Shown here: piece by piece, positions 366 through 11,186 of the stretch
Layout of the letters: each line of letters opens with the position of its first letter
How positions within the stretch are numbered: position 1 is the first letter of the stretch
Source: Escherichia coli
GTDB lineage: Bacteria > Pseudomonadota > Gammaproteobacteria > Enterobacterales > Enterobacteriaceae
Reading direction: 5' to 3' (one strand)
Assembly (NCBI RefSeq): GCF_044324785.1
Contig: NZ_CP172127.1
Length of the DNA stretch: 64,000 bases
The notes under the pieces: generated by a model
The model's database searches: none
Told to the model about the DNA's origin: nothing
The model's input: only the letters and a program-made list of their open reading frames with translations
Position numbers and translations under genes: made by a program

Positions 366-1262
366 ATGGCAGCAATCGCGTTTATCGGTTTAGGACAAAT
401 GGGTTCGCCAATGGCGAGCAATTTATTGCAGCAAGGGCATCAACTTCGCGTCTTTGATGTGAACGCCGAAGCTGTGCGGCATCTGGTAGACAAAGGTGCG
501 ACTCCCGCCGCCAACCCGGCGCAGGCCGCTAAAGATGCCGAATTTATCATTACCATGTTGCCGAATGGCGATCTGGTGCGCAGCGTGTTGTTCGGTGAAA
601 ACGGCGTTTGCGAAAGCTTATCTACCGATGCGCTGGTCATCGATATGTCGACCATCCATCCGCTGCAAACCGATAAATTGATTGCCGATATGCAAGCCAA
701 AGGCTTCAGCATGATGGATGTTCCGGTAGGCCGTACTTCTGCAAATGCCATTACCGGTACTCTGTTACTGCTGGCTGGCGGCACCGCTGAACAAGTTGAA
801 CGCGCCACACCGATCCTGATGGCGATGGGCAGTGAGTTGATCAACGCGGGCGGCCCGGGCATGGGGATCCGCGTTAAGCTCATCAACAACTACATGAGCA
901 TCGCGCTCAATGCGCTTTCGGCAGAAGCCGCCGTTTTGTGCGAAGCCCTGAATCTTCCCTTCGATGTTGCCGTCAAGGTGATGAGCGGCACCGCCGCCGG
1001 TAAAGGCCACTTCACCACTTCCTGGCCAAACAAAGTCCTCAGCGGGGATCTTTCTCCCGCCTTCATGCTCGATCTTGCCCATAAGGATCTTGGTATCGCC
1101 CTTGATGTCGCCAACCAGCTGCATGTGCCAATGCCGCTGGGGGCCGCCTCACGGGAGGTTTATAGCCAGGCGCGCGCAGCGGGTCGCGGTCGCCAGGACT
1201 GGTCCGCCATTCTGGAACAGGTCCGTGTCAGTGCCGGGATGACTGCCAAAGTAAAAATGTAA
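366..1262 (+). CDS. yihU: 3-sulfolactaldehyde reductase (beta-hydroxyacid dehydrogenase family)
   Basis: 298-aa ORF with N-terminal Rossmann motif ([10 protein letters not shown]); recognised protein; synteny. Confidence 0.9.
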
Positions 1263-1285: not shown

Positions 1286-2164
1286 ATGCATAAGTACACC
1301 ATCAACGACATTACGCGCGCATCGGGCGGTTTTGCCATGCTGGCGGTCGATCAACGCGAAGCCATGCGCATGATGTTTGCCGCGGCTGGGGCACCCGCTC
1401 CAGTAGCCGATAGCGTTTTAACTGATTTCAAAGTTAACGCTGCAAAGGCCCTCTCGCCTTACGCCTCCGCCATTCTGGTGGATCAACAGTTCTGTTACCG
1501 CCAGGTGGTTGAGCAAAACGCAATTGCCAAAAGTTGCGCCATGATTGTCGCCGCCGATGAGTTCATTCCTGGCAACGGTATTCCGGTAGATAGCGTGGTC
1601 ATTGACCGCAAAATCAACCCGCTACAAATCAAACAAGACGGTGGCAAAGCCTTAAAACTGCTGGTGCTGTGGCGTAGCGATGAAGATGCGCAGCAACGTC
1701 TGAATATGGTGAAAGAGTTCAACGAACTGTGCCATTCAAACGGTCTGGTGAGCATCATTGAGCCGGTTGTTCGCCCGCCGCGTCGTGGCGATAAATTCGA
1801 TCGCGAACAAGCGATCATTGATGCCGCCAAAGAGCTGGGCGACAGTGGCGCTGACCTCTACAAAGTTGAAATGCCGCTTTATGGCAAAGGTCCGCAACAA
1901 GAGCTTCTCAGTGCTTCACAACGTCTGAATGACCATATCAATATGCCGTGGGTGATCCTCTCATCCGGTGTCGACGAAAAACTGTTCCCGCGTGCCGTAC
2001 GCGTGGCAATGACAGCGGGTGCATCGGGCTTCCTGGCTGGTCGTGCCGTCTGGGCATCGGTTGTCGGTTTACCAGACAACGAGCTGATGCTGCGTGACGT
2101 TTGCGCACCGAAATTACAACAACTTGGCGATATCGTCGACGAAATGATGGCTAAACGCCGTTAA
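1286..2164 (+). CDS. yihT: 6-deoxy-6-sulfofructose-1-phosphate aldolase
   Basis: 292-aa ORF, recognised protein, 24-bp spacing after yihU. Confidence 0.88.
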
Positions 2165-2179
2165 GATGGGGATATAAAA

Positions 2180-3421
2180 ATGAAATGGTTTAACACCTTA
2201 AGTCACAACCGTTGGCTGGAACAGGAAACCGATCGCATCTTTGATTTTGGTAAAAATTCCGTAGTACCGACCGGATTTGGCTGGTTAGGCAATAAAGGGC
2301 AAATCAAAGAAGAGATGGGCACCCATCTGTGGATCACCGCTCGTATGTTGCACGTTTATTCTGTTGCTGCGGCGATGGGTCGACCTGGCGCTTACTCGTT
2401 GGTTGATCACGGTATCAAAGCCATGAACGGCGCACTGCGCGATAAAAAATATGGCGGTTGGTATGCCTGCGTGAATGACGAGGGCGTGGTGGATGCCTCC
2501 AAACAGGGCTATCAACACTTCTTTGCTCTGCTGGGTGCCGCCAGCGCGGTCACAACGGGTCACCCGGAAGCACGCAAGCTGCTCGATTACACCATTGAAA
2601 TTATCGAGAAATACTTCTGGAGCGAAGAAGAGCAGATGTGCCTTGAGTCCTGGGACGAAGCCTTCAGCAAAACCGAAGAATATCGCGGTGGCAATGCCAA
2701 CATGCACGCGGTAGAAGCCTTCCTGATTGTCTATGACGTCACGCATGACAAAAAATGGCTGGATCGCGCCATTCGCGTGGCTTCCGTGATTATCCACGAT
2801 GTCGCCAGAAATAATCATTATCGCGTTAACGAGCACTTCGATACCCAGTGGAATCCGCTGCCGGATTACAACAAAGATAACCCGGCGCACCGCTTCCGCG
2901 CGTTCGGAGGTACTCCGGGCCACTGGATCGAATGGGGCCGTTTAATGCTGCACATCCACGCTGCCCTGGAAGCCCGCTTCGAACAGCCGCCTGCCTGGCT
3001 GCTAGAAGATGCCAAAGGTCTGTTTAACGCCACCGTGCGCGATGCCTGGGCACCCGATGGCGCGGACGGGATTGTTTATACCGTTGACTGGGAAGGAAAA
3101 CCGGTGGTCCGCGAACGTGTGCGTTGGCCTATCGTCGAAGCGATGGGTACGGCCTACGCGCTCTACACCGTCACCGGCGATCGCCAGTATGAAACCTGGT
3201 ATCAGACATGGTGGGACTACTGCATTAAGTACCTGATGGACTATGAAAATGGTTCCTGGTGGCAGGAGCTGGATGCGGACAATAAGGTCACCACCAAAGT
3301 CTGGGACGGCAAACAGGATATTTATCACCTGCTGCATTGCCTGGTGATCCCGCGTATCCCGTTAGCGCCAGGCCTGGCTCCGGCAGTTGCGGCGGGTCTG
3401 CTGGATATTAACGCGAAATAA
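2180..3421 (+). CDS. yihS: sulfoquinovose isomerase (AGE-fold)
   Basis: 413-aa ORF, recognised protein, synteny. Confidence 0.88.
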
Positions 3422-3487: not shown

Positions 3488-4390
3488 ATGCAAATCACCA
3501 ACATGCATTGCAGTGGACAGACCGTTTCACTTGCCGCGGGGGATTATCACGCGACTATCGTGACGGTTGGTGCTGGTCTGGCTGAATTAACCTTTCAGGG
3601 TTGTCATTTAGTCATCCCGCACAAACCCGAAGAGATGCCGCTGGCGCATCTGGGTAAAGTGCTTATTCCGTGGCCGAACCGGATCGCCAACGGCTGTTAC
3701 CGCTATCAGGGGCAGGACTATCAGTTACCCATTAATGAACATAGTTCAAAAGCCGCTATTCACGGGCTGCTTGCCTGGCGTGACTGGCAAATTAGCGAAT
3801 TAACCGCCACCAGCGTTACCCTGACAGCTTTTCTGCCGCCCAGTTACGGCTATCCGTTTATGCTGGCTTCACAAGTTGTTTATTCGCTCAATGCTCGCAC
3901 GGGCCTTTCCGTTGAGATCGCAAGCCAGAATATTGGTACTGTGACCGCACCTTATGGTGTGGGTATTCATCCTTATTTAACCTGTGACTTAACGCCTGTT
4001 GATGACTATCTTTTCCAGCTTCCGGCAGAACAGGTTTATGCCGTCGATGAGCACGCAAATCCGACAACGCTTCACCACGTTGATGAGCTGAATTTAAATT
4101 TCACGCGGGCGACAAAAATAGCCGCGACAAAAATCGACCACACCTTTAAAACCGCTAATGATCTGTGGGAAATGACCATTACCCATCCACAGCATTTGCT
4201 TTCGGTGAGCCTCTGTTCCGATCAACCCTGGGTGCAGGTTTATAGCGGTGAAAAATTACAGCGTCAGGGACTGGCAGTTGAACCTATGAGTTGCCCGCCT
4301 GATGCGTTTAATTCAGGTATCGACTTATTATTACTGGAACCAGGAAAAACGCACCGCCTGTTTTTTAATATTCACGGGCAGCACAATTAA
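3488..4390 (+). CDS. yihR: aldose 1-epimerase family protein (sulfoquinovose mutarotase)
   Basis: 300-aa ORF, recognised protein, synteny. Confidence 0.85.
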   Translation: MQITNMHCSGQTVSLAAGDYHATIVTVGAGLAELTFQGCHLVIPHKPEEMPLAHLGKVLIPWPNRIANGCYRYQGQDYQLPINEHSSKAAIHGLLAWRDWQISELTATSVTLTAFLPPSYGYPFMLASQVVYSLNARTGLSVEIASQNIGTVTAPYGVGIHPYLTCDLTPVDDYLFQLPAEQVYAVDEHANPTTLHHVDELNLNFTRATKIAATKIDHTFKTANDLWEMTITHPQHLLSVSLCSDQPWVQVYSGEKLQRQGLAVEPMSCPPDAFNSGIDLLLLEPGKTHRLFFNIHGQHN

Positions 4391-4450
4391 TTTTATTAAG
4401 AAAAGAACGAGATCATTGTTTAGGGTTGTATTTACACAACAGGAAAGATT

Positions 4451-5326
4451 ATGGACTTTTTTACATTATTTACGCCGGACGGGGCCATGGTGGAAACAAG
4501 CGTGGTATGTATCGTTATCGCGTTAATGTTTCTTTATACCTTTGTGGGGATATGCGCGGGATTTGGCGGTGGTTTAACCACTATGCCGCTCGTCACGTTA
4601 ATGCTCCCCGTAAAAATGGCAACTCCGCTCTCGGTGATTGTCGGCACCGCAACCGCCTTGTACGCCACCTGGCTGTCACGTAAAGAAACGGATTGGCGAT
4701 CGGCAATGGTACTGATTATTTTCTCGTTTCTGGGAATACCCGTCGGTTTATATGCGCTGTCGTATTTACCCGACCATTTTATGAAAGTGGGCTTAGGCGG
4801 ATTCCTTATCCTTTACTCGTTTTACAGCATGTTTATTCCTCGCCTGCCGATTTATGACCGTAACTGGATCGCCGCACCTATCGGCGCAGTAGCTGGTGCA
4901 TTAGGTGCGGCGTTCTCAACCAACGGACCGCCGATGGTTATCTACGGTATGCTGCGTAACTTAGGCCCGGCGGCATTTCGCGGCACTTTGAACGCTTTCT
5001 TCACCGCAAACAACATCGCGGTGATCGGCGGGCTGGCAACCAGCGGAATTTTGACTGTCTCTATCTTTAAACTGGTGTTGTTTTGTATTCCCACCATGAT
5101 CCTCGGTTCACTGGTTGGACAATATGTGCATAAACGCATTTCGGTCAAAGTGTTCCGTGTGATGGTCTTTTTATTGCTGATTGCCTCCGGTTCTATGTTG
5201 ATAAAAGGCGCGCTGGGAATTCCCGCCGCTGCCGCACTTCTGCCTCCGTTTACCTTGTTAGTTATACTGCAACTGGCATTCGGTAAAAAAGTGGCGGCAA
5301 TCCGCCGGGCTGAAGAAAGTAAATAA
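4451..5326 (+). CDS. TSUP / TauE-SafE family (DUF81) polytopic membrane permease; candidate sulfonate or sulfite exporter
   Basis: 291-aa ORF with SD AGGA 6 nt upstream of ATG; multiple hydrophobic helices and the family's Gly-rich motif (GFGGGLTTMPL); function is inferred from family and context only. Confidence 0.8.
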   Translation: MDFFTLFTPDGAMVETSVVCIVIALMFLYTFVGICAGFGGGLTTMPLVTLMLPVKMATPLSVIVGTATALYATWLSRKETDWRSAMVLIIFSFLGIPVGLYALSYLPDHFMKVGLGGFLILYSFYSMFIPRLPIYDRNWIAAPIGAVAGALGAAFSTNGPPMVIYGMLRNLGPAAFRGTLNAFFTANNIAVIGGLATSGILTVSIFKLVLFCIPTMILGSLVGQYVHKRISVKVFRVMVFLLLIASGSMLIKGALGIPAAAALLPPFTLLVILQLAFGKKVAAIRRAEESK

Positions 5327-5431
5327 TCATTATGCGGGTTTTAATTTATACCCGCACACATTCTTTAATTAATGAAACCTGTAATAACAGGATGGCATGA
5401 AATATTAGCTTTATATCTATGGAGATTATTT

Positions 5432-7468
5432 ATGGATACGCCACGCCCACAGTTACCAGATTTTAAATTTCATCATAATAACGACCGTTTTACCCTACGT
5501 TTTCAGGGCCGTCTTATTTTATCCCATAGTAAAGATAATCCTTGTTTATCGATTGGCTCAGGTATTGCGGATATTGATATGTTCCGTGGCAATTTCAGCA
5601 TTAAAGATAAATTGCAGGAGAAGATTGCGCTTACCGACGCTACCGTCAGCCAGTCACCGGATGGCTGGTTAATCCATTTCAGCCGTGGTTCTGACATTAG
5701 CGCCACGCTGAATATCTCTGCCGACGATCAGGGCCGTTTATTGCTGGAACTACAAAACGACAACCATCACCACAACCGCATCTGGCTGCGCCTTGCCGCT
5801 CAACCAGAGGACCATATCTACGGCTGCGGTGAACAATTCTCCTACTTTGATCTGCGCGGCAAACCGTTCCCGCTATGGACCAGTGAACAAGGCGTTGGTC
5901 GCAACAAGCAAACCTATGTCACCTGGCAGGCCGACTGCAAAGAGAACGCGGGCGGCGACTATTACTGGACTTTCTTCCCGCAGCCTACGTTTGTCAGCAC
6001 GCAGAAGTATTACTGCCATGTTGATAACAGTTGCTACATGAACTTCGACTTTAGTGCCCCGGATTACCACGAACTGGCGCTGTGGGAAGACAAAGCAACG
6101 CTGCGTTTTGAATGTGCTGATACATACATCTCCCTGCTGGAAAAATTAACTGCCCTGCTGGGACGCCAGCCAGAACTGCCCGACTGGATTTATGACGGGG
6201 TAACGCTCGGCATTCAGGGCGGGACGGAAGTGTGTCAGAAGAAACTGGACACCATGCGTAACGCGGGCGTGAAGGTTAACGGCATCTGGGCGCAGGACTG
6301 GTCCGGGATCCGTATGACCTCTTTTGGCAAACGCGTGATGTGGAACTGGAAGTGGAACAGCGAAAACTATCCGCAACTGGACTCACGTATTAAGCAGTGG
6401 AACAAAGAGGGCGTTCAGTTCCTTGCCTATATCAACCCGTATGTCGCCAGTGATAAAGACCTCTGTGCCGAAGCAGCAAAACACGGCTATCTGGCAAAAG
6501 ATGCCTGTGGCGGTGACTATCTGGTGGAATTCGGCGAGTTCTACGGCGGCGTTGTCGATCTCACTAATCCGGAAGCCTACGCCTGGTTCAAGGAAGTGAT
6601 CAAAAAGAACATGATTGAACTCGGCTGCGGCGGCTGGATGGCTGACTTCGGCGAGTATCTGCCCACCGACACTTACCTGCATAACGGCGTTAGCGCCGAA
6701 ATTATGCATAACGCCTGGCCCGCACTGTGGGCGAAGTGTAACTACGAAGCCCTTGAAGAAACGGGCAAGCTCGGCGAGATCCTTTTCTTTATGCGCGCCG
6801 GTTCTACCGGTAGCCAGAAATACTCCACCATGATGTGGGCGGGCGACCAGAACGTCGACTGGAGTCTGGACGATGGCCTGGCGTCGGTCGTCCCGGCGGC
6901 GCTGTCGCTGGCAATGACCGGACATGGCCTGCATCACAGTGACATTGGCGGTTATACCACCCTGTTTGAGATGAAGCGCAGCAAAGAGCTGCTGCTGCGC
7001 TGGTGCGATTTCAGCGCCTTCACGCCGATGATGCGCACCCACGAAGGCAACCGCCCCGGTGACAACTGGCAGTTTGACGGCGACGCGGAAACTATCGCCC
7101 ATTTTGCCCGTATGACCACCGTCTTCACCACCCTGAAACCTTACCTGAAAGAGGCCGTCGCGCTGAATGCGAAATCCGGCCTGCCAGTTATGCGCCCGCT
7201 GTTCCTGCATTACGAAGACGACGCGCAGACCTACACCCTGAAATATCAGTACCTGTTAGGCCGCGACATTCTGGTCGCTCCGGTGCATGAAGAAGGCCGT
7301 AGCGACTGGACGCTCTATCTGCCGGAGGATAACTGGGTCCATGCCTGGACGGGAGAAACCTTCCACGGGGGAGAAATAACCGTTGAAGCGCCCATCGGCA
7401 AGCCGCCGGTCTTTTATCGCGCCGATAGCGAATGGGCGGCACTGTTCGCGTCGTTAAAAAGCATCTAA
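5432..7468 (+). CDS. yihQ: sulfoquinovosidase, glycoside hydrolase family 31
   Basis: ORF track starts at 5372; the in-frame ATG at 5432 gives the 678-aa protein beginning MDTPRPQLPDF that I recognise. Confidence 0.9.
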   Translation: MDTPRPQLPDFKFHHNNDRFTLRFQGRLILSHSKDNPCLSIGSGIADIDMFRGNFSIKDKLQEKIALTDATVSQSPDGWLIHFSRGSDISATLNISADDQGRLLLELQNDNHHHNRIWLRLAAQPEDHIYGCGEQFSYFDLRGKPFPLWTSEQGVGRNKQTYVTWQADCKENAGGDYYWTFFPQPTFVSTQKYYCHVDNSCYMNFDFSAPDYHELALWEDKATLRFECADTYISLLEKLTALLGRQPELPDWIYDGVTLGIQGGTEVCQKKLDTMRNAGVKVNGIWAQDWSGIRMTSFGKRVMWNWKWNSENYPQLDSRIKQWNKEGVQFLAYINPYVASDKDLCAEAAKHGYLAKDACGGDYLVEFGEFYGGVVDLTNPEAYAWFKEVIKKNMIELGCGGWMADFGEYLPTDTYLHNGVSAEIMHNAWPALWAKCNYEALEETGKLGEILFFMRAGSTGSQKYSTMMWAGDQNVDWSLDDGLASVVPAALSLAMTGHGLHHSDIGGYTTLFEMKRSKELLLRWCDFSAFTPMMRTHEGNRPGDNWQFDGDAETIAHFARMTTVFTTLKPYLKEAVALNAKSGLPVMRPLFLHYEDDAQTYTLKYQYLLGRDILVAPVHEEGRSDWTLYLPEDNWVHAWTGETFHGGEITVEAPIGKPPVFYRADSEWAALFASLKSI

Positions 7469-7513
7469 TCACGTCCGCCCGTGGGGAAACTCACGGGCAA
7501 AGGGAGAACAACG

Positions 7514-8899
7514 ATGAGTCACATCACAACGGAAGATCCGGCTACTTTACGTCTGCCCTTTAAAGAGAAACTCTCTTACGGTATCGGCGATCTGGCCTCT
7601 AACATCCTGCTGGATATCGGCACGCTTTATCTTTTGAAGTTTTATACCGACGTTCTGGGGCTGCCCGGCACCTATGGCGGCATTATCTTTTTGATTTCAA
7701 AGTTCTTTACCGCCTTTACCGATATGGGTACCGGCATTATGTTGGATTCCCGACGCAAGATCGGTCCAAAAGGCAAATTCCGCCCTTTTATTCTGTATGC
7801 ATCATTCCCGGTCACCCTGTTGGCGATCGCCAACTTTATCGGCACACCGTTTGATGTCACCGGTAAAACGGTGATGGCCACCATCCTGTTTATGCTTTAC
7901 GGACTGTTTTTCAGCATGATGAACTGCTCCTACGGCGCAATGGTCCCCGCTATTACTAAAAACCCCAACGAACGTGCATCGCTGGCAGCATGGCGTCAGG
8001 GTGGCGCTACATTGGGCCTGCTGCTGTGTACGGTGGGATTCGTGCCGGTTATGAATCTTATCGAAGGTAATCAGCAACTTGGCTATATCTTCGCCGCCAC
8101 GCTGTTTTCACTGTTCGGCCTGCTGTTTATGTGGATCTGCTACTCGGGCGTGAAAGAGCGTTATGTCGAAACCCAACCTGCAAATCCGGCGCAAAAGCCT
8201 GGCCTGCTGCAGTCTTTCCGCGCGATTGCTGGTAACCGCCCACTATTCATTCTGTGTATTGCCAACCTCTGCACTTTAGGGGCGTTTAACGTCAAGCTCG
8301 CCATTCAGGTCTATTACACGCAGTACGTGCTTAACGATCCCATCCTGTTGTCGTATATGGGATTTTTCAGCATGGGCTGTATTTTCATCGGCGTGTTCCT
8401 GATGCCTGGTGCAGTCAGACGTTTTGGTAAGAAGAAGGTCTATATCGGCGGCCTGCTGATTTGGGTGCTGGGCGATCTGCTCAACTATTTCTTTGGCGGC
8501 GGCTCGGTCAGCTTTGTGGCGTTCTCCTGCCTGGCGTTCTTCGGCTCAGCGTTTGTTAACAGCCTGAACTGGGCGCTGGTTTCTGACACCGTCGAGTACG
8601 GCGAGTGGCGCACCGGTGTGCGTTCGGAAGGTACGGTCTACACCGGCTTCACTTTCTTTCGCAAAGTGTCTCAGGCGCTGGCTGGTTTCTTCCCCGGCTG
8701 GATGCTGACGCAAATCGGCTATGTGCCAAACGTGGCGCAGGCTGACCATACCATCGAAGGTTTACGCCAGCTGATCTTCATCTACCCAAGCGCACTGGCG
8801 GTAGTCACCATTGTGGCGATGGGTTGCTTCTACAGTCTGAACGAGAAAATGTACGTCCGCATTGTTGAAGAAATAGAAGCCCGTAAACGCACGGCATAA
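7514..8899 (+). CDS. yihP: GPH-family sugar:cation symporter
   Basis: ORF track starts at 7481; likely start ATG 7514 (MSHITTEDP...); 12-TM transporter, paralogous to yihO. Confidence 0.85.
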   Translation: MSHITTEDPATLRLPFKEKLSYGIGDLASNILLDIGTLYLLKFYTDVLGLPGTYGGIIFLISKFFTAFTDMGTGIMLDSRRKIGPKGKFRPFILYASFPVTLLAIANFIGTPFDVTGKTVMATILFMLYGLFFSMMNCSYGAMVPAITKNPNERASLAAWRQGGATLGLLLCTVGFVPVMNLIEGNQQLGYIFAATLFSLFGLLFMWICYSGVKERYVETQPANPAQKPGLLQSFRAIAGNRPLFILCIANLCTLGAFNVKLAIQVYYTQYVLNDPILLSYMGFFSMGCIFIGVFLMPGAVRRFGKKKVYIGGLLIWVLGDLLNYFFGGGSVSFVAFSCLAFFGSAFVNSLNWALVSDTVEYGEWRTGVRSEGTVYTGFTFFRKVSQALAGFFPGWMLTQIGYVPNVAQADHTIEGLRQLIFIYPSALAVVTIVAMGCFYSLNEKMYVRIVEEIEARKRTA

Positions 8900-10202
8900 A
8901 TAATAAACAACGCCCTGCGGGGCGTTATAAGGAGTGATTATGTCTGACCATAATCCACTGACATTAAGACTGAATCTGCGGGAAAAAATCGCCTATGGCA
9001 TGGGCGACGTCGGTTCGAATTTAATGCTTAGCATCGGCACTCTGTATCTCCTCAAATTTTATACCGATGAATTAGGGATGCCTGCTTACTATGGCGGGAT
9101 TATCTTTCTGGTAGCGAAGTTTTTTACCGCGTTTACCGATATGCTCACCGGATTTTTACTCGACTCGCGGAAAAATATTGGGCCTAAAGGCAAATTTCGT
9201 CCCTTTATTTTATATGCAGCGGTTCCGGCGGCGTTAATTGCAACGCTCCAGTTTATCGCCACCACTTTTAGTTTGCCGGTTAAAACGACGATTGCCACCG
9301 CGCTGTTTATGATGTTTGGACTTTCATACAGTCTGATGAACTGCTCGTATGGCGCGATGATCCCGGCAATTACCAAAAACCCCAATGAGCGCGCGCAGCT
9401 TGCGGCTTACCGCCAGGGTGGTGCAACCATAGGGCTATTGATTTGTACCGTGGCGTTTATTCCGTTGCAGTCGCTTTTTTCTGACTCCACCGTCGGTTAT
9501 GCCTGTGCGGCACTTATGTTCTCCATTGGCGGCTTTATTTTTATGATGCTGTGCTACAGAGGCGTCAAAGAGCATTATGTGGACACAACGCCAACCGGAC
9601 ATAAAGCCAGTATTCTCAAATCATTTTGCGCGATATTTCGGAATCCGCCATTGCTGGTTTTGTGCATTGCTAACCTGTGTACCCTGGCGGCATTTAATAT
9701 CAAACTGGCGATTCAGGTCTATTACACCCAGTATGTGCTGAATGATATTAACTTATTGTCGTGGATGGGATTCTTCAGTATGGGATGCATCCTCATCGGC
9801 GTATTGCTGGTGCCATTAAGCGTAAAATGTTTTGGTAAAAAACAGGTTTATTTAGCTGGCATGGTGCTGTGGGCGGTGGGGGATATCCTGAATTATTTCT
9901 GGGGAAGTAACTCTTTCACTTTCGTCATGTTCTCTTGTATCGCCTTTTTTGGCACGGCCTTTGTAAACAGCCTGAACTGGGCACTGGTGCCAGATACCGT
10001 AGATTACGGTGAATGGAAAACCGGTATTCGTGCCGAAGGTTCTGTTTATACCGGTTATACCTTCTTTCGTAAAATTTCTGCCGCACTTGCTGGCTTCTTG
10101 CCAGGCATTATGCTGACGCAAATCGGTTATATTCCCAACATCGCGCAGGTGATGCTGCCAACTTACTGATTTAGTGTATGATGGTGTTTTTGAGGTGCTC
10201 CA

Positions 10203-10478
10203 GTGGCTTCTGTTTCTATCAGCTGTCCCTCCTGTTCAGCTACTGACGGGGTGGTGCGTAACGGCAAAAGCACCGCCGGACATCAGCGCTATCTCTGCTC
10301 TCACTGCCGTAAAACATGGCAACTGCAGTTCACTTACACCGCTTCTCAACCCGGTACGCACCAGAAAATCATTGATATGGCCATGAATGGCGTTGGATGC
10401 CGGGCAACTGCCCGCATTATGGGCGTTGGCCTCAACACGATTTTACGTCACTTAAAAAACTCAGGCCGCAGTCGGTAA
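10203..10478 (+). CDS. insA: IS1 InsA
   Basis: 91-aa [27 protein letters not shown]..., recognised. Confidence 0.95.
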
Positions 10479-10900
10479 CCTCGCGCATACAGCCGGGCAG
10501 TGACGTCATCGTCTGCGCGGAAATGGACGAACAGTGGGGCTATGTCGGGGCTAAATCGCGCCAGCGCTGGCTGTTTTACGCGTATGACAGTCTCCGGAAG
10601 ACGGTTGTTGCGCACGTATTCGGTGAACGCACTATGGCGACGCTGGGGCGTCTTATGAGCCTGCTGTCACCCTTTGACGTGGTGATATGGATGACGGATG
10701 GCTGGCCGCTGTATGAATCCCGCCTGAAGGGAAAGCTGCACGTAATCAGCAAGCGATATACGCAGCGAATTGAGCGGCATAACCTGAATCTGAGGCAGCA
10801 CCTGGCACGGCTGGGACGGAAGTCGCTGTCGTTTTCAAAATCGGTGGAGCTGCATGACAAAGTCATCGGGCATTATCTGAACATAAAACACTATCAATAA
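10397..10900 (+). CDS. insB: IS1 InsB (made as InsAB' transposase by -1 frameshift at the A6C motif near 10453..10463)
   Basis: ORF in -1 frame overlapping insA; TTAAAAAACTC slippery motif present. Confidence 0.9.
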
Positions 10901-11186
10901 GTTGGAGTCATTACCCATCGCGCAAAGTGATGCGACATTACAGGGTTTGCGTCAGCTCATTTTTATCTGGCCTTGTGCACTGGCAATTATTGCTGCATTG
11001 ACGATGGGATTCTTTTACACACTCAATGAAAAACGGTTTGCGTTGATTATTGAGGAAATCAACCAACGCAAAAATAAAGAGATGGCGACAGAAGAAAAAA
11101 CGGCTTCCGTAACGTTATAAATGTCAATAGCCGCTATTTCCATCCTGGTGGGTGGCGGCCTCCCTACGTTTAAAAATGGACTTATT

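What the first reader, a model, noticed from the sequence alone, without database searches (positions are those of the whole stretch)
4451..5326. TSUP/TauE-family permease gene embedded in the sulfoquinovose cluster
Between yihR and yihQ there is a 291-aa polytopic membrane ORF with a good RBS and the Gly-rich signature of the TSUP (TauE/SafE, DUF81) family. As I recall, K-12 has yihR and yihQ adjacent and only one TSUP gene (yfcA) elsewhere, so this looks like an accessory or ancestral component missing from the reference cluster. TSUP proteins export sulfite and sulfonates in other sulfonate pathways, so it is a plausible exporter for the C3-sulfonate end product (DHPS or sulfolactate) or for sulfite.
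Basis: partly seen in the sequence, partly recalled or inferred. Interest (0 to 1): 0.6.

Follow-up and report, generated by a model that had tools for sequence, protein, structure and literature searches.

The report
Overlooked sulfonate permease in sulfoquinovose operon
A real membrane-transporter gene sits inside this E. coli strain's operon for eating the plant sulfo-sugar sulfoquinovose; it is an ancestral part of the operon that the laboratory strain K-12 has lost, and it most likely pumps out the sulfonate waste product, but it is already annotated in many genomes and belongs to a known kind.

Summary
Window 4451-5326 (+) is an intact 291-codon gene between yihR and yihQ. It matches Pfam TauE/TSUP (E 4.7e-35) and is under strong purifying selection (dN/dS 0.01-0.11).

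K-12 has only a 198-bp spacer at this position. The gene is not rare: it is annotated as "sulfite exporter TauE/SafE family protein" in 1287 of 5426 complete E. coli genomes. That is about one third of the genomes that carry yihS.

An ortholog sits at the same position in Salmonella enterica and E. whittamii, and between yihQ and yihP in Kluyvera, Klebsiella, Pantoea, Atlantibacter and Lelliottia. It is therefore ancestral, and K-12 lost it.

The same tight orthogroup (74-95% identical) also ends a second operon type, a sulfo-Entner-Doudoroff variant with a sulfolactaldehyde reductase. A 2026 paper showed that variant produces DHPS in Vibrio. Both operon types carry their own sugar-type importer and no desulfonating enzyme.

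The best reading, by inference only, is a DHPS exporter and not a sulfite exporter. K-12 excretes DHPS without this gene, so it is dispensable there.

I found no paper that mentions this gene, and reviews still assign DHPS export to YihP. It is a new member of a known kind, of moderate interest.

The parts
4441..4447 (+). Shine-Dalgarno sequence AGGAAAG of the TSUP gene
   Evidence: Read directly from the sequence. It lies 6 nt upstream of the ATG at 4451. A diverged copy of this RBS plus ATG appears to survive in the K-12 spacer, though that similarity is only suggestive.
4451..5326 (+). TSUP/TauE-family permease gene (291 aa), the subject of the finding
   Evidence: ORF found. Pfam PF01925 E 4.7e-35. 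dN/dS 0.014-0.107. AF2 pLDDT 95.4 with two repeats of TM helix, short helix and three TM helices, plus an extra C-terminal helix at 259-290. 100% nucleotide identity to the RefSeq CDS WP_042002955.1 of E. coli N3.
5327..5375 (+). Conserved hairpin just after the TSUP stop codon; it has no U-tract, so it is not a canonical terminator
   Evidence: RNA fold -12.5 kcal/mol, z -3.5 against shuffles. Conserved in O157, E-1246 and E. whittamii. No + strand terminator-like site was found between yihR, the TSUP gene and yihQ.
366..1262 (+). yihU (sulfolactaldehyde reductase, forms DHPS), first gene of the operon
   Evidence: ORF list. 100% amino-acid identity to the aligned part of yihU in N3 and 99% to K-12 yihU.
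1286..2164 (+). yihT (sulfofructose-phosphate aldolase)
2180..3421 (+). yihS (sulfoquinovose isomerase)
3488..4390 (+). yihR (sulfoquinovose mutarotase), immediately upstream of the TSUP gene
5432..7468 (+). yihQ (sulfoquinovosidase), immediately downstream of the TSUP gene
7481..8899 (+). yihP (GPH/MFS_2 permease; the literature assigns it DHPS export). The listed ORF starts at a GTG; the start annotated in RefSeq homologs corresponds to about 7514.
   Evidence: YihP is 65% identical to YihO.
8934..11120 (+). yihO (GPH/MFS_2 permease, the sulfoquinovose importer in K-12), split here by an IS1 insertion into a 5' part (to 10148) and a 3' part (10917-11120)
   Evidence: Collinear with N3 yihO except for a 768-bp insertion.
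10149..10916 (+). IS1 element (768 bp) inside yihO, flanked by the 9-bp target duplication CATCGCGCA
   Evidence: Sequence read. insA- and insB-like ORFs at 10203-10478 and 10397-10900. Boundaries and duplication determined. The insertion is absent from strain N3.

Best explanation
Window 4451-5326 encodes a functional inner-membrane secondary transporter of the TSUP (TauE/SafE, PF01925) family. It is transcribed as part of the sulfoquinovose operon yihU-T-S-R-[TSUP]-Q-P-O-ompL. It is an ancestral component of the enterobacterial sulfoglycolysis cluster, and the K-12-type lineages of E. coli lost it, leaving a 198-bp spacer. Its most likely job is to export 2,3-dihydroxypropane-1-sulfonate (DHPS), the cytoplasmic end product made by the sulfolactaldehyde reductase YihU. 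As an anion carrier it would probably be driven outward by the membrane potential. Shown here: the gene is real, it belongs to the family, it is under selection, it sits in the operon, it has the stated distribution, and it is ancestral. Inferred: the substrate (DHPS), the direction (export) and the energetics. My confidence is about 0.97 for the gene, family and ancestry part and about 0.55 for the DHPS-export part; the score given is for the whole statement.
For: Gene and family:
- Pfam TauE E 4.7e-35 over the full model.
- dN/dS 0.014-0.107.
- AF2 pLDDT 95.4.
- GC 49.5% against 50.6% for the window, so there is no sign of recent foreign origin.

Operon membership:
- Same strand, 60-nt and 105-nt gaps to its neighbours, its own RBS, and no + strand terminator-like site.

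Ancestry:
- Salmonella enterica (87% identical, very large cluster) and E. whittamii have yihR-TSUP-yihQ.
- Kluyvera, Atlantibacter, Pantoea, Lelliottia, Klebsiella quasipneumoniae and two unnamed Enterobacteriaceae have yihQ-TSUP-yihP/O.
- TSUP identity to these genera (74-82%) is in line with the neighbouring genes yihU/T/S/Q/P (77-89%), consistent with co-descent.
- TSUP-less E. coli spacers are a single homologous allele.

Function:
- The orthogroup is a single 50%-identity cluster among 1.84 billion representatives. The next relatives are at most 38% identical.
- All 19 genomic contexts examined are sulfoglycolysis clusters.
- It occurs in two biochemically different pathways: sulfo-EMP, and a sulfo-ED variant with dehydrogenase, lactonase, dehydratase and aldolase.
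- Besides this TSUP, those two pathways share only the mutarotase and an HIBADH-type sulfolactaldehyde reductase. The ED variant was shown to make DHPS stoichiometrically in Vibrio splendidus (PMC13372026).
- Each pathway has its own sugar-type importer: GPH YihO/YihP, or an SSF symporter.
- Klebsiella quasipneumoniae and Lelliottia clusters have one GPH permease plus the TSUP, a minimal import and export pair.
- No cluster contains a desulfonating enzyme.
- Family precedent: TauE-type proteins are the predicted sulfolactate, DHPS or isethionate exporters in sulfo-TAL (SftE), sulfo-TK (SqwE) and Arthrobacter sulfo-EMP clusters (PMC7491151; PMC12890257; PMC8873060).
- YihP, the textbook DHPS exporter, is a 65%-identical paralog of the sugar importer YihO, and its export role is only 'most likely' in the source (PMC6278857).
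Against: - K-12 lacks the gene, yet it grows on sulfoquinovose and excretes DHPS (pathway as described in PMC6278857). The transporter is therefore dispensable for export in at least that background.
- About two thirds of E. coli genomes with the long yih cassette have lost it.
- No member of this orthogroup has any transport, knockout or expression data that I could find.
- The direction of transport cannot be read from sequence, and the family is named after an uptake system (TsaS).
- No solved structure exists for the family that could guide a substrate-site argument.
- The similarity of the K-12 spacer to the TSUP 5' end is weak, and the central spacer has no detectable remnant of the gene. 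'Deletion' therefore rests on outgroups, not on a visible scar.
Confidence: 0.55

Rival explanations
1. The gene encodes an uptake permease that brings in sulfoquinovose, sulfoquinovosyl-glycerol or another sulfonated substrate, as the family name (toluene sulfonate uptake permease) suggests.
For: The direction of TSUP transport is not established for any member. The substrate (sulfoquinovose) is shared by the two operon types just as the product is. In this window yihO, the K-12 importer, is broken by IS1 while the TSUP gene and yihP are intact.
Against: Every cluster already encodes a sugar-type symporter: GPH YihO/YihP, or SSF. K-12 delta-yihO cannot grow on sulfoquinovose, and K-12 imports it without a TSUP (PMC6278857). 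TauE-type proteins in other sulfoglycolytic clusters sit alongside separate importers and are read as exporters.
Confidence: 0.15
2. It is a relief valve for other sulfonated anions in the pathway, such as sulfolactaldehyde, sulfolactate or sulfofructose, or a broad-specificity small-anion exporter, and not a dedicated DHPS exporter.
For: It is dispensable in K-12. It was lost in about two thirds of E. coli genomes with the long cassette. TauE-type proteins are associated with several different sulfonates in other bacteria.
Against: The orthogroup was found only next to HIBADH-type reductases, which give DHPS, and never next to a sulfolactaldehyde dehydrogenase in the 19 contexts examined. Strong purifying selection and 74-95% identity across two pathway types point to one specific substrate.
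Confidence: 0.15
3. It is a sulfite exporter, as the RefSeq product name says.
For: The database name is 'sulfite exporter TauE/SafE family protein'. TauE of Cupriavidus necator was proposed to be a sulfite exporter (cited).
Against: The name is a family-level label, and no NCBIfam equivalog model matches the protein. None of the clusters encodes a C-S bond-cleaving enzyme. The sulfo-EMP and reductive sulfo-ED pathways excrete DHPS without releasing sulfite. The protein is at most 38% identical to any TSUP outside its own orthogroup.
Confidence: 0.05
4. The gene is a decaying or functionless passenger with no role in sulfoquinovose metabolism.
For: It is frequently lost in E. coli. The yih locus is prone to IS1 hits and frameshifts.
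Against: dN/dS is 0.014-0.107. The reading frame is intact in all alleles examined except one IS1-truncated copy. The gene is conserved within the operon across at least nine genera.
Confidence: 0.03

Closest known systems
TauE-type predicted sulfonate exporters of other sulfoglycolysis clusters (SftE in sulfo-TAL of Bacillus aryabhattai and Enterococcus gilvus; SqwE in sulfo-TK; the TauE permease of Arthrobacter sp. AK04 sulfo-EMP)
   Same: Same Pfam family (PF01925). Each is encoded inside a sulfoquinovose catabolic cluster alongside a separate sugar importer. Each is proposed to expel the C2 or C3 sulfonate end product (PMC7491151, PMC12890257, PMC8873060).
   Different: This orthogroup is confined to Enterobacterales and Vibrio and is at most 38% identical to any other TSUP cluster. 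It is about 290 aa against the usual 240 or so, with a conserved N-terminal MDFFTLFTPDG motif and an extra C-terminal helix followed by FGKKVAAIR. I could not compare sequences directly with SftE or SqwE. None of these proteins, this one included, has direct transport data in the papers I read.
TauE of Cupriavidus necator H16 and SafE (the founding 'sulfite/sulfoacetate exporter' members of DUF81/TSUP)
   Same: Same family, with the same Gly- and Pro-rich helix-break motifs.
   Different: Those proteins accompany desulfonating pathways that release sulfite or sulfoacetate. This one accompanies pathways that release DHPS and no sulfite.
YihP of E. coli K-12 (GPH/MFS_2 permease, assigned as the DHPS exporter in the literature)
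   Same: Encoded in the same operon, and it is the only other candidate for the same step (PMC6278857, PMC12890257).
   Different: It belongs to an unrelated fold and family. YihP is a 65%-identical paralog of the sugar importer YihO, which fits a second sulfoquinovose or sulfoquinovosyl-glycerol importer better than a C3-sulfonate exporter. YihP is present in K-12 and the TSUP is not.
YfcA, the E. coli K-12 TSUP-family protein (from my own background knowledge)
   Same: Same family, according to database naming. Some JGI records label orthologs of this gene 'uncharacterized membrane protein YfcA'.
   Different: It is not in the yih cluster. I made no sequence comparison, because no YfcA sequence was available to the tools.

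Membership tests
TSUP / TauE-SafE family (Pfam PF01925, TC 2.A.102) | Significant full-length match to the family profile | tested here: met
   PF01925 E 4.7e-35, residues 23-248 against model positions 2-235 of 237. 5629 library representatives at E <= 1e-3, and all close hits carry PF01925.
TSUP / TauE-SafE family (Pfam PF01925, TC 2.A.102) | Polytopic core of eight membrane helices built from two four-helix halves | tested here: met
   The AF2 model (pLDDT 95.4) has helices at 16-36, 40-48 (short), 54-75, 82-105 and 108-128, then at 138-155, 159-168 (short), 173-198, 203-227 and 232-255. That is the same pattern twice, followed by an extra helix at 259-290. Sequence similarity between the two halves is weak on its own (BLASTP E 0.25).
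TSUP / TauE-SafE family (Pfam PF01925, TC 2.A.102) | Conserved Gly- and Pro-rich motifs at the helix breaks | tested here: met
   G37 and G99 are invariant. F38, G39, P46, G95, P97, G145, G149, G152, G159, P160 and P161 are at least 90% conserved in a 103-sequence alignment.
TSUP / TauE-SafE family (Pfam PF01925, TC 2.A.102) | Transport of sulfite or an organosulfonate | not testable with these tools
Sulfoglycolysis-cluster sulfonate exporters (SftE/SqwE-like role) | Encoded within a sulfoquinovose catabolic operon next to the enzyme that forms the excreted sulfonate | tested here: met
   In this window it lies between yihR and yihQ, in the same operon as yihU. The same holds in 19 contexts across sulfo-EMP and reductive sulfo-ED clusters.
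Sulfoglycolysis-cluster sulfonate exporters (SftE/SqwE-like role) | A separate importer for the sugar is present in the same cluster | tested here: met
   GPH YihO/YihP in sulfo-EMP clusters, and an SSF symporter transcribed divergently with LacI in sulfo-ED clusters.
Sulfoglycolysis-cluster sulfonate exporters (SftE/SqwE-like role) | Induced by sulfoquinovose and required for sulfonate excretion | not testable with these tools
   No expression or knockout data were found. The published transcriptomes are from K-12 and Nissle 1917, which were not checked here for this gene (PMC12608037).
Enterobacterial sulfo-EMP (yih) operon, core component | Conserved in the operon across genera with divergence like its neighbours | tested here: met
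   TSUP is 74-87% identical across genera, against 77-89% for yihU, T, S, Q and P. The position differs: yihR/yihQ in Escherichia and Salmonella, yihQ/yihP elsewhere.
Enterobacterial sulfo-EMP (yih) operon, core component | Present in all functional versions of the operon | tested here: not met
   It is absent from K-12 and from 2610 of about 4000 E. coli genomes that carry yihS. K-12 is the experimentally validated sulfoquinovose degrader. The gene is therefore an accessory, dispensable component, not an essential one.

The most novel reading that the evidence does not exclude
This TSUP, and not YihP, is the native DHPS exporter of gamma-proteobacterial sulfoglycolysis, in both the sulfo-EMP and the reductive sulfo-ED pathways. 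On this reading K-12 is a degenerate model that lost its dedicated exporter, YihO and YihP are both importers (for sulfoquinovose and its glycerol glycoside), and DHPS leaves K-12 by an unidentified or moonlighting route. The orthogroup would then be the first TSUP subfamily with a defined organosulfonate substrate and a distinctive nine-helix architecture.
Probability: 0.4. Interest if true: 0.55.

Novelty: new member of a known kind. Interest (0 to 1): 0.35.

Why it matters
Sulfoquinovose turnover is a large flux in the sulfur cycle. DHPS released by Enterobacteria feeds sulfide-producing gut bacteria.

The pathway model used everywhere comes from K-12, which lacks this gene. Reviews up to 2026 assign DHPS export to YihP without direct evidence. 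A 2025 survey of yih cassette variants in E. coli describes only the long and short forms and does not mention this gene.

Two points follow from recognising the gene:
- A dedicated TSUP permease belongs to the ancestral operon. It is still present in Salmonella, O157:H7 and about a third of yihS-carrying E. coli genomes.
- The export step gets a concrete, testable candidate, and the poorly characterised TSUP family gets a possible defined substrate.

This refines a known system and does not reveal a new kind of system.

Tried and rejected
- NCBIfam gave no hit for the protein, so no curated equivalog exists.
- PDB sequence and profile searches found nothing. Foldseek against the PDB gave no match at E <= 0.001; the best was TM 0.43-0.49 to the BacA phosphatase. 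No structure-based substrate inference was possible.
- I looked for a remnant of the gene in the K-12 spacer. The central 75 nt scores no better than shuffles (9.0 against a mean of 9.7). Only the first 60 nt or so (through the RBS and ATG) and the last 55 nt or so align. The deletion reading therefore rests on outgroups.
- The Salmonella spacers are too diverged to help.
- Sequence-level evidence for the internal 4+4 repeat is weak (E 0.25).
- Recent horizontal insertion into this strain is rejected. GC is ordinary, cross-genus divergence matches the neighbouring genes, and the position is shared with Salmonella.
- The 'sulfite exporter' label is rejected as the likely function, because the clusters contain no sulfite-forming enzyme.
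- Literature searches for STM4019 (a locus tag recalled from memory) found nothing. One search was badly designed and uninformative.
- Denger et al. 2014 (Nature) is not in the library. I could not check whether its extended data mention this gene.

Full report
**1. The observation**

Window 4451-5326 (+) is an open reading frame of 291 codons starting at ATG. An AGGAAAG ribosome-binding site lies 6 nt upstream.

The ORF sits in a run of same-strand genes that BLAST and RefSeq annotation identify as follows:
- yihU (366-1262)
- yihT (1286-2164)
- yihS (2180-3421)
- yihR (3488-4390)
- yihQ (5432-7468)
- yihP (to 8899)
- yihO

The product matches Pfam TauE (PF01925) over essentially the whole model, E 4.7e-35. 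It carries the Gly- and Pro-rich motifs that are the most conserved columns of the family.

It is a real gene:
- Pairwise dN/dS among five Escherichia alleles is 0.014-0.107.
- AlphaFold2 returns a confident all-helical membrane model, pLDDT 95.4 and pTM 0.91.

K-12 strains have yihR and yihQ separated by a 198-bp spacer with no ORF of this kind.

**2. How common it is**

The gene is not unusual in E. coli. Megablast finds it on the chromosome of 1287 of 5426 complete RefSeq E. coli genomes at 95-100% identity. In every case it is annotated 'sulfite exporter TauE/SafE family protein'.

For comparison, yihS is in 4017 genomes and the K-12-type spacer is in 2610. About one third of genomes with the long yih cassette therefore carry the gene. 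O157:H7 is among them. The collection over-represents some lineages, so these figures are not population frequencies.

The closest relative of the window is E. coli N3, at 99.3% over the cluster with an identical TSUP gene.

TSUP-less spacers from divergent strains are a single homologous allele.

**3. Ancestral or acquired**

A scan of one genome per GTDB species, followed by tblastn of the window's yih proteins, gave orthologs at 74-99% identity in 15 species.
- E. whittamii has the same order, yihR-TSUP-yihQ.
- Salmonella enterica has an 87%-identical ortholog, a very large cluster, at exactly this position between yihR and yihQ.
- Kluyvera, Atlantibacter, Pantoea, Lelliottia, Klebsiella quasipneumoniae and two unnamed Enterobacteriaceae also have the gene inside the sulfo-EMP cluster, but between yihQ and the GPH permease genes.

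Cross-genus identity of the TSUP (74-82%) is like that of yihU, T, S, Q and P (77-89%). Its GC content is ordinary.

The simplest history is that the gene belongs to the ancestral enterobacterial cluster and was lost in the K-12-type allele.

The spacer itself gives only weak support for a deletion. Its first 60 nt or so align through the TSUP RBS and ATG, and its last 55 nt or so align with the yihQ leader. Its centre shows no remnant of the gene.

**4. A second genomic context that bears on function**

In Edwardsiella, Hafnia, Mixta, Leminorella, Citrobacter amalonaticus, Enterobacter and Vibrio owensii, the same orthogroup is the last gene of a seven-gene operon. Orthogroup members are 74-95% identical to each other and to the sulfo-EMP copies.

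The operon encodes the following:
- an IlvD/EDD-family dehydratase
- an HpcH/HpaI aldolase
- an aldose epimerase
- an SMP-30/gluconolactonase-type lactonase
- an HIBADH-family reductase
- an SDR dehydrogenase

A LacI regulator and an SSF sodium:solute symporter are transcribed divergently from it.

This is the enzyme set of the sulfo-Entner-Doudoroff pathway, with a reductase in place of the sulfolactaldehyde dehydrogenase. A June 2026 paper showed by growth, proteomics, knockout and metabolite analysis that Vibrio splendidus uses such a modified sulfo-ED cluster and excretes DHPS stoichiometrically. The same paper predicted DHPS as the product of all Vibrio sulfo-ED clusters (PMC13372026).

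In Enterobacter kobei this module lies about 1.4 kb from a sulfo-EMP cluster that itself lacks yihR and the TSUP.

**5. What the gene most likely does**

The orthogroup is very compact. Among 1.84 billion 50%-identity representatives it forms one full-length cluster, and the next TSUP relatives are at most 38% identical and about 240 aa long. All 19 contexts I examined are sulfoglycolysis clusters.

Besides this TSUP, the two pathway types share only the substrate-side mutarotase and the HIBADH-type reductase that makes DHPS. Each pathway brings its own sugar-type importer. Two sulfo-EMP clusters have just one GPH permease plus the TSUP. No cluster has a C-S-cleaving enzyme, so sulfite is not produced.

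TauE-type proteins are the accepted, though still only predicted, exporters of the end-product sulfonate in the sulfo-TAL, sulfo-TK and Arthrobacter sulfo-EMP clusters.

I therefore favour export of DHPS, with the anion moved outward by a secondary carrier. Substrate, direction and driving force are all inference.

The main counter-evidence is that K-12 excretes DHPS without the gene, and that most E. coli genomes with the long cassette have lost it. The rivals are an importer role, a broader sulfonate relief valve, and the literal 'sulfite exporter'. They are weighed in the structured fields.

**6. Relation to the literature**

The pathway papers and reviews I could read name YihO as importer and YihP as DHPS exporter. 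In the source the YihP assignment is worded 'most likely' (PMC6278857; PMC12890257). YihO and YihP are 65%-identical GPH paralogs, which fits two importers better than an importer and an exporter.
[quoted passage not shown] It contains none of the words TauE, sulfite, exporter or permease (PMC12608037).
- Salmonella papers call the operon yihUTSRQPO (PMC7922415) or 'syntenic' to E. coli (PMC8006165).
- The Vibrio paper does not mention TauE or an exporter.

Within the searchable library the gene is thus unmentioned, although databases annotate it.

**7. Structure and family membership**

The model shows the same pattern twice: a transmembrane helix, a short helix after a Gly-rich break, then three more transmembrane helices. 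An additional C-terminal helix (259-290) follows, which typical 240-aa TSUPs lack.

That helix, the motif FGKKVAAIR after it, and the N-terminal MDFFTLFTPDG are conserved across the orthogroup.

No solved structure is related by sequence, profile or Foldseek. Membership of the TSUP family is met on every sequence and structural criterion tested. Transport activity is untestable here.

**8. Verdict**

However, the gene is widespread, already annotated, and of a kind (TauE-type permease in a sulfoglycolysis cluster) that is familiar.

The added value is threefold:
- It is an ancestral operon member missing from the model strain.
- It forms a distinct subfamily shared by two DHPS-forming pathways.
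- It is a better-motivated candidate for the DHPS export step than YihP.

I rate it a new member of a known kind, with interest 0.35.

Noticed in passing
window 10149-10916 (within yihO, 8934-11120): A 768-bp IS1 element with a 9-bp target duplication (CATCGCGCA) interrupts yihO, the sulfoquinovose importer that K-12 needs for growth on the sugar. The close relative E. coli N3 lacks the insertion but has frameshifted csqR and yihU. Other strains have IS1 in yihQ or IS1-mediated deletion of the TSUP-to-yihN region (L020, L021). The locus seems prone to decay.
   Followed up: partly
window 3488-4390 (yihR): yihR is far more divergent than its neighbours. It is 54-60% amino-acid identical to other genera, against 77-89% for yihU, T, S, Q and P. 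It is 87.7% identical to E. whittamii and 93.7% to K-12, against 96-99% for the other genes. One TSUP-less strain (HR5-1) carries a yihR protein accession (WP_001167544.1) close in series to those of TSUP-carrying strains, and its yihR region matches the window better than K-12-type genomes do. This hints at recombination breakpoints around the yihR-TSUP junction.
   Followed up: no
window 5327-5375: A hairpin lies directly after the TSUP stop codon (-12.5 kcal/mol, z -3.5). It is conserved in E. coli and E. whittamii carriers and has no U-tract. Its function is unknown; it could act in mRNA stability or processing between the TSUP gene and yihQ.
   Followed up: partly
L024/L025 (Edwardsiella), L029 (Hafnia), L031 (Enterobacter kobei), L008, L013: A seven-gene reductive sulfo-ED operon is spread among distantly related Enterobacterales. 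It encodes dehydratase, aldolase, mutarotase, lactonase, HIBADH reductase, SDR dehydrogenase and the TSUP, with divergent LacI and an SSF symporter. Its TSUPs are 89-95% identical across these hosts, which suggests horizontal transfer. In E. kobei it sits about 1.4 kb from a sulfo-EMP cluster that lacks yihR and the TSUP. The pathway type was recently demonstrated in Vibrio (PMC13372026).
   Followed up: partly
L008 7957-14656 (Citrobacter amalonaticus, minus strand): Downstream of the sulfo-ED operon lies a further cluster. It has a true YihU equivalog (565 bits), a YihT-like aldolase, a Zn-dependent dehydrogenase, two MFS transporters and an unassigned 295-aa protein. It may be related to the 'short' yihTUVW cassette described in E. 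coli.
   Followed up: no
window 4451-4483 and 5225-5323 (protein residues 1-11 and 259-291): The orthogroup has features that ordinary 240-aa TSUP proteins lack: a nearly invariant N-terminal MDFFTLFTPDG, which is a short beta-hairpin in the model, and a ninth helix followed by FGKKVAAIR. The ninth helix would place the two termini on opposite sides of the membrane.
   Followed up: partly
E. coli genome collection: About 1400 of 5426 complete E. coli genomes have no yihS at all. This is consistent with the 'short' yihTUVW cassette reported in 2025. One genome has two places matching the TSUP gene.
   Followed up: no
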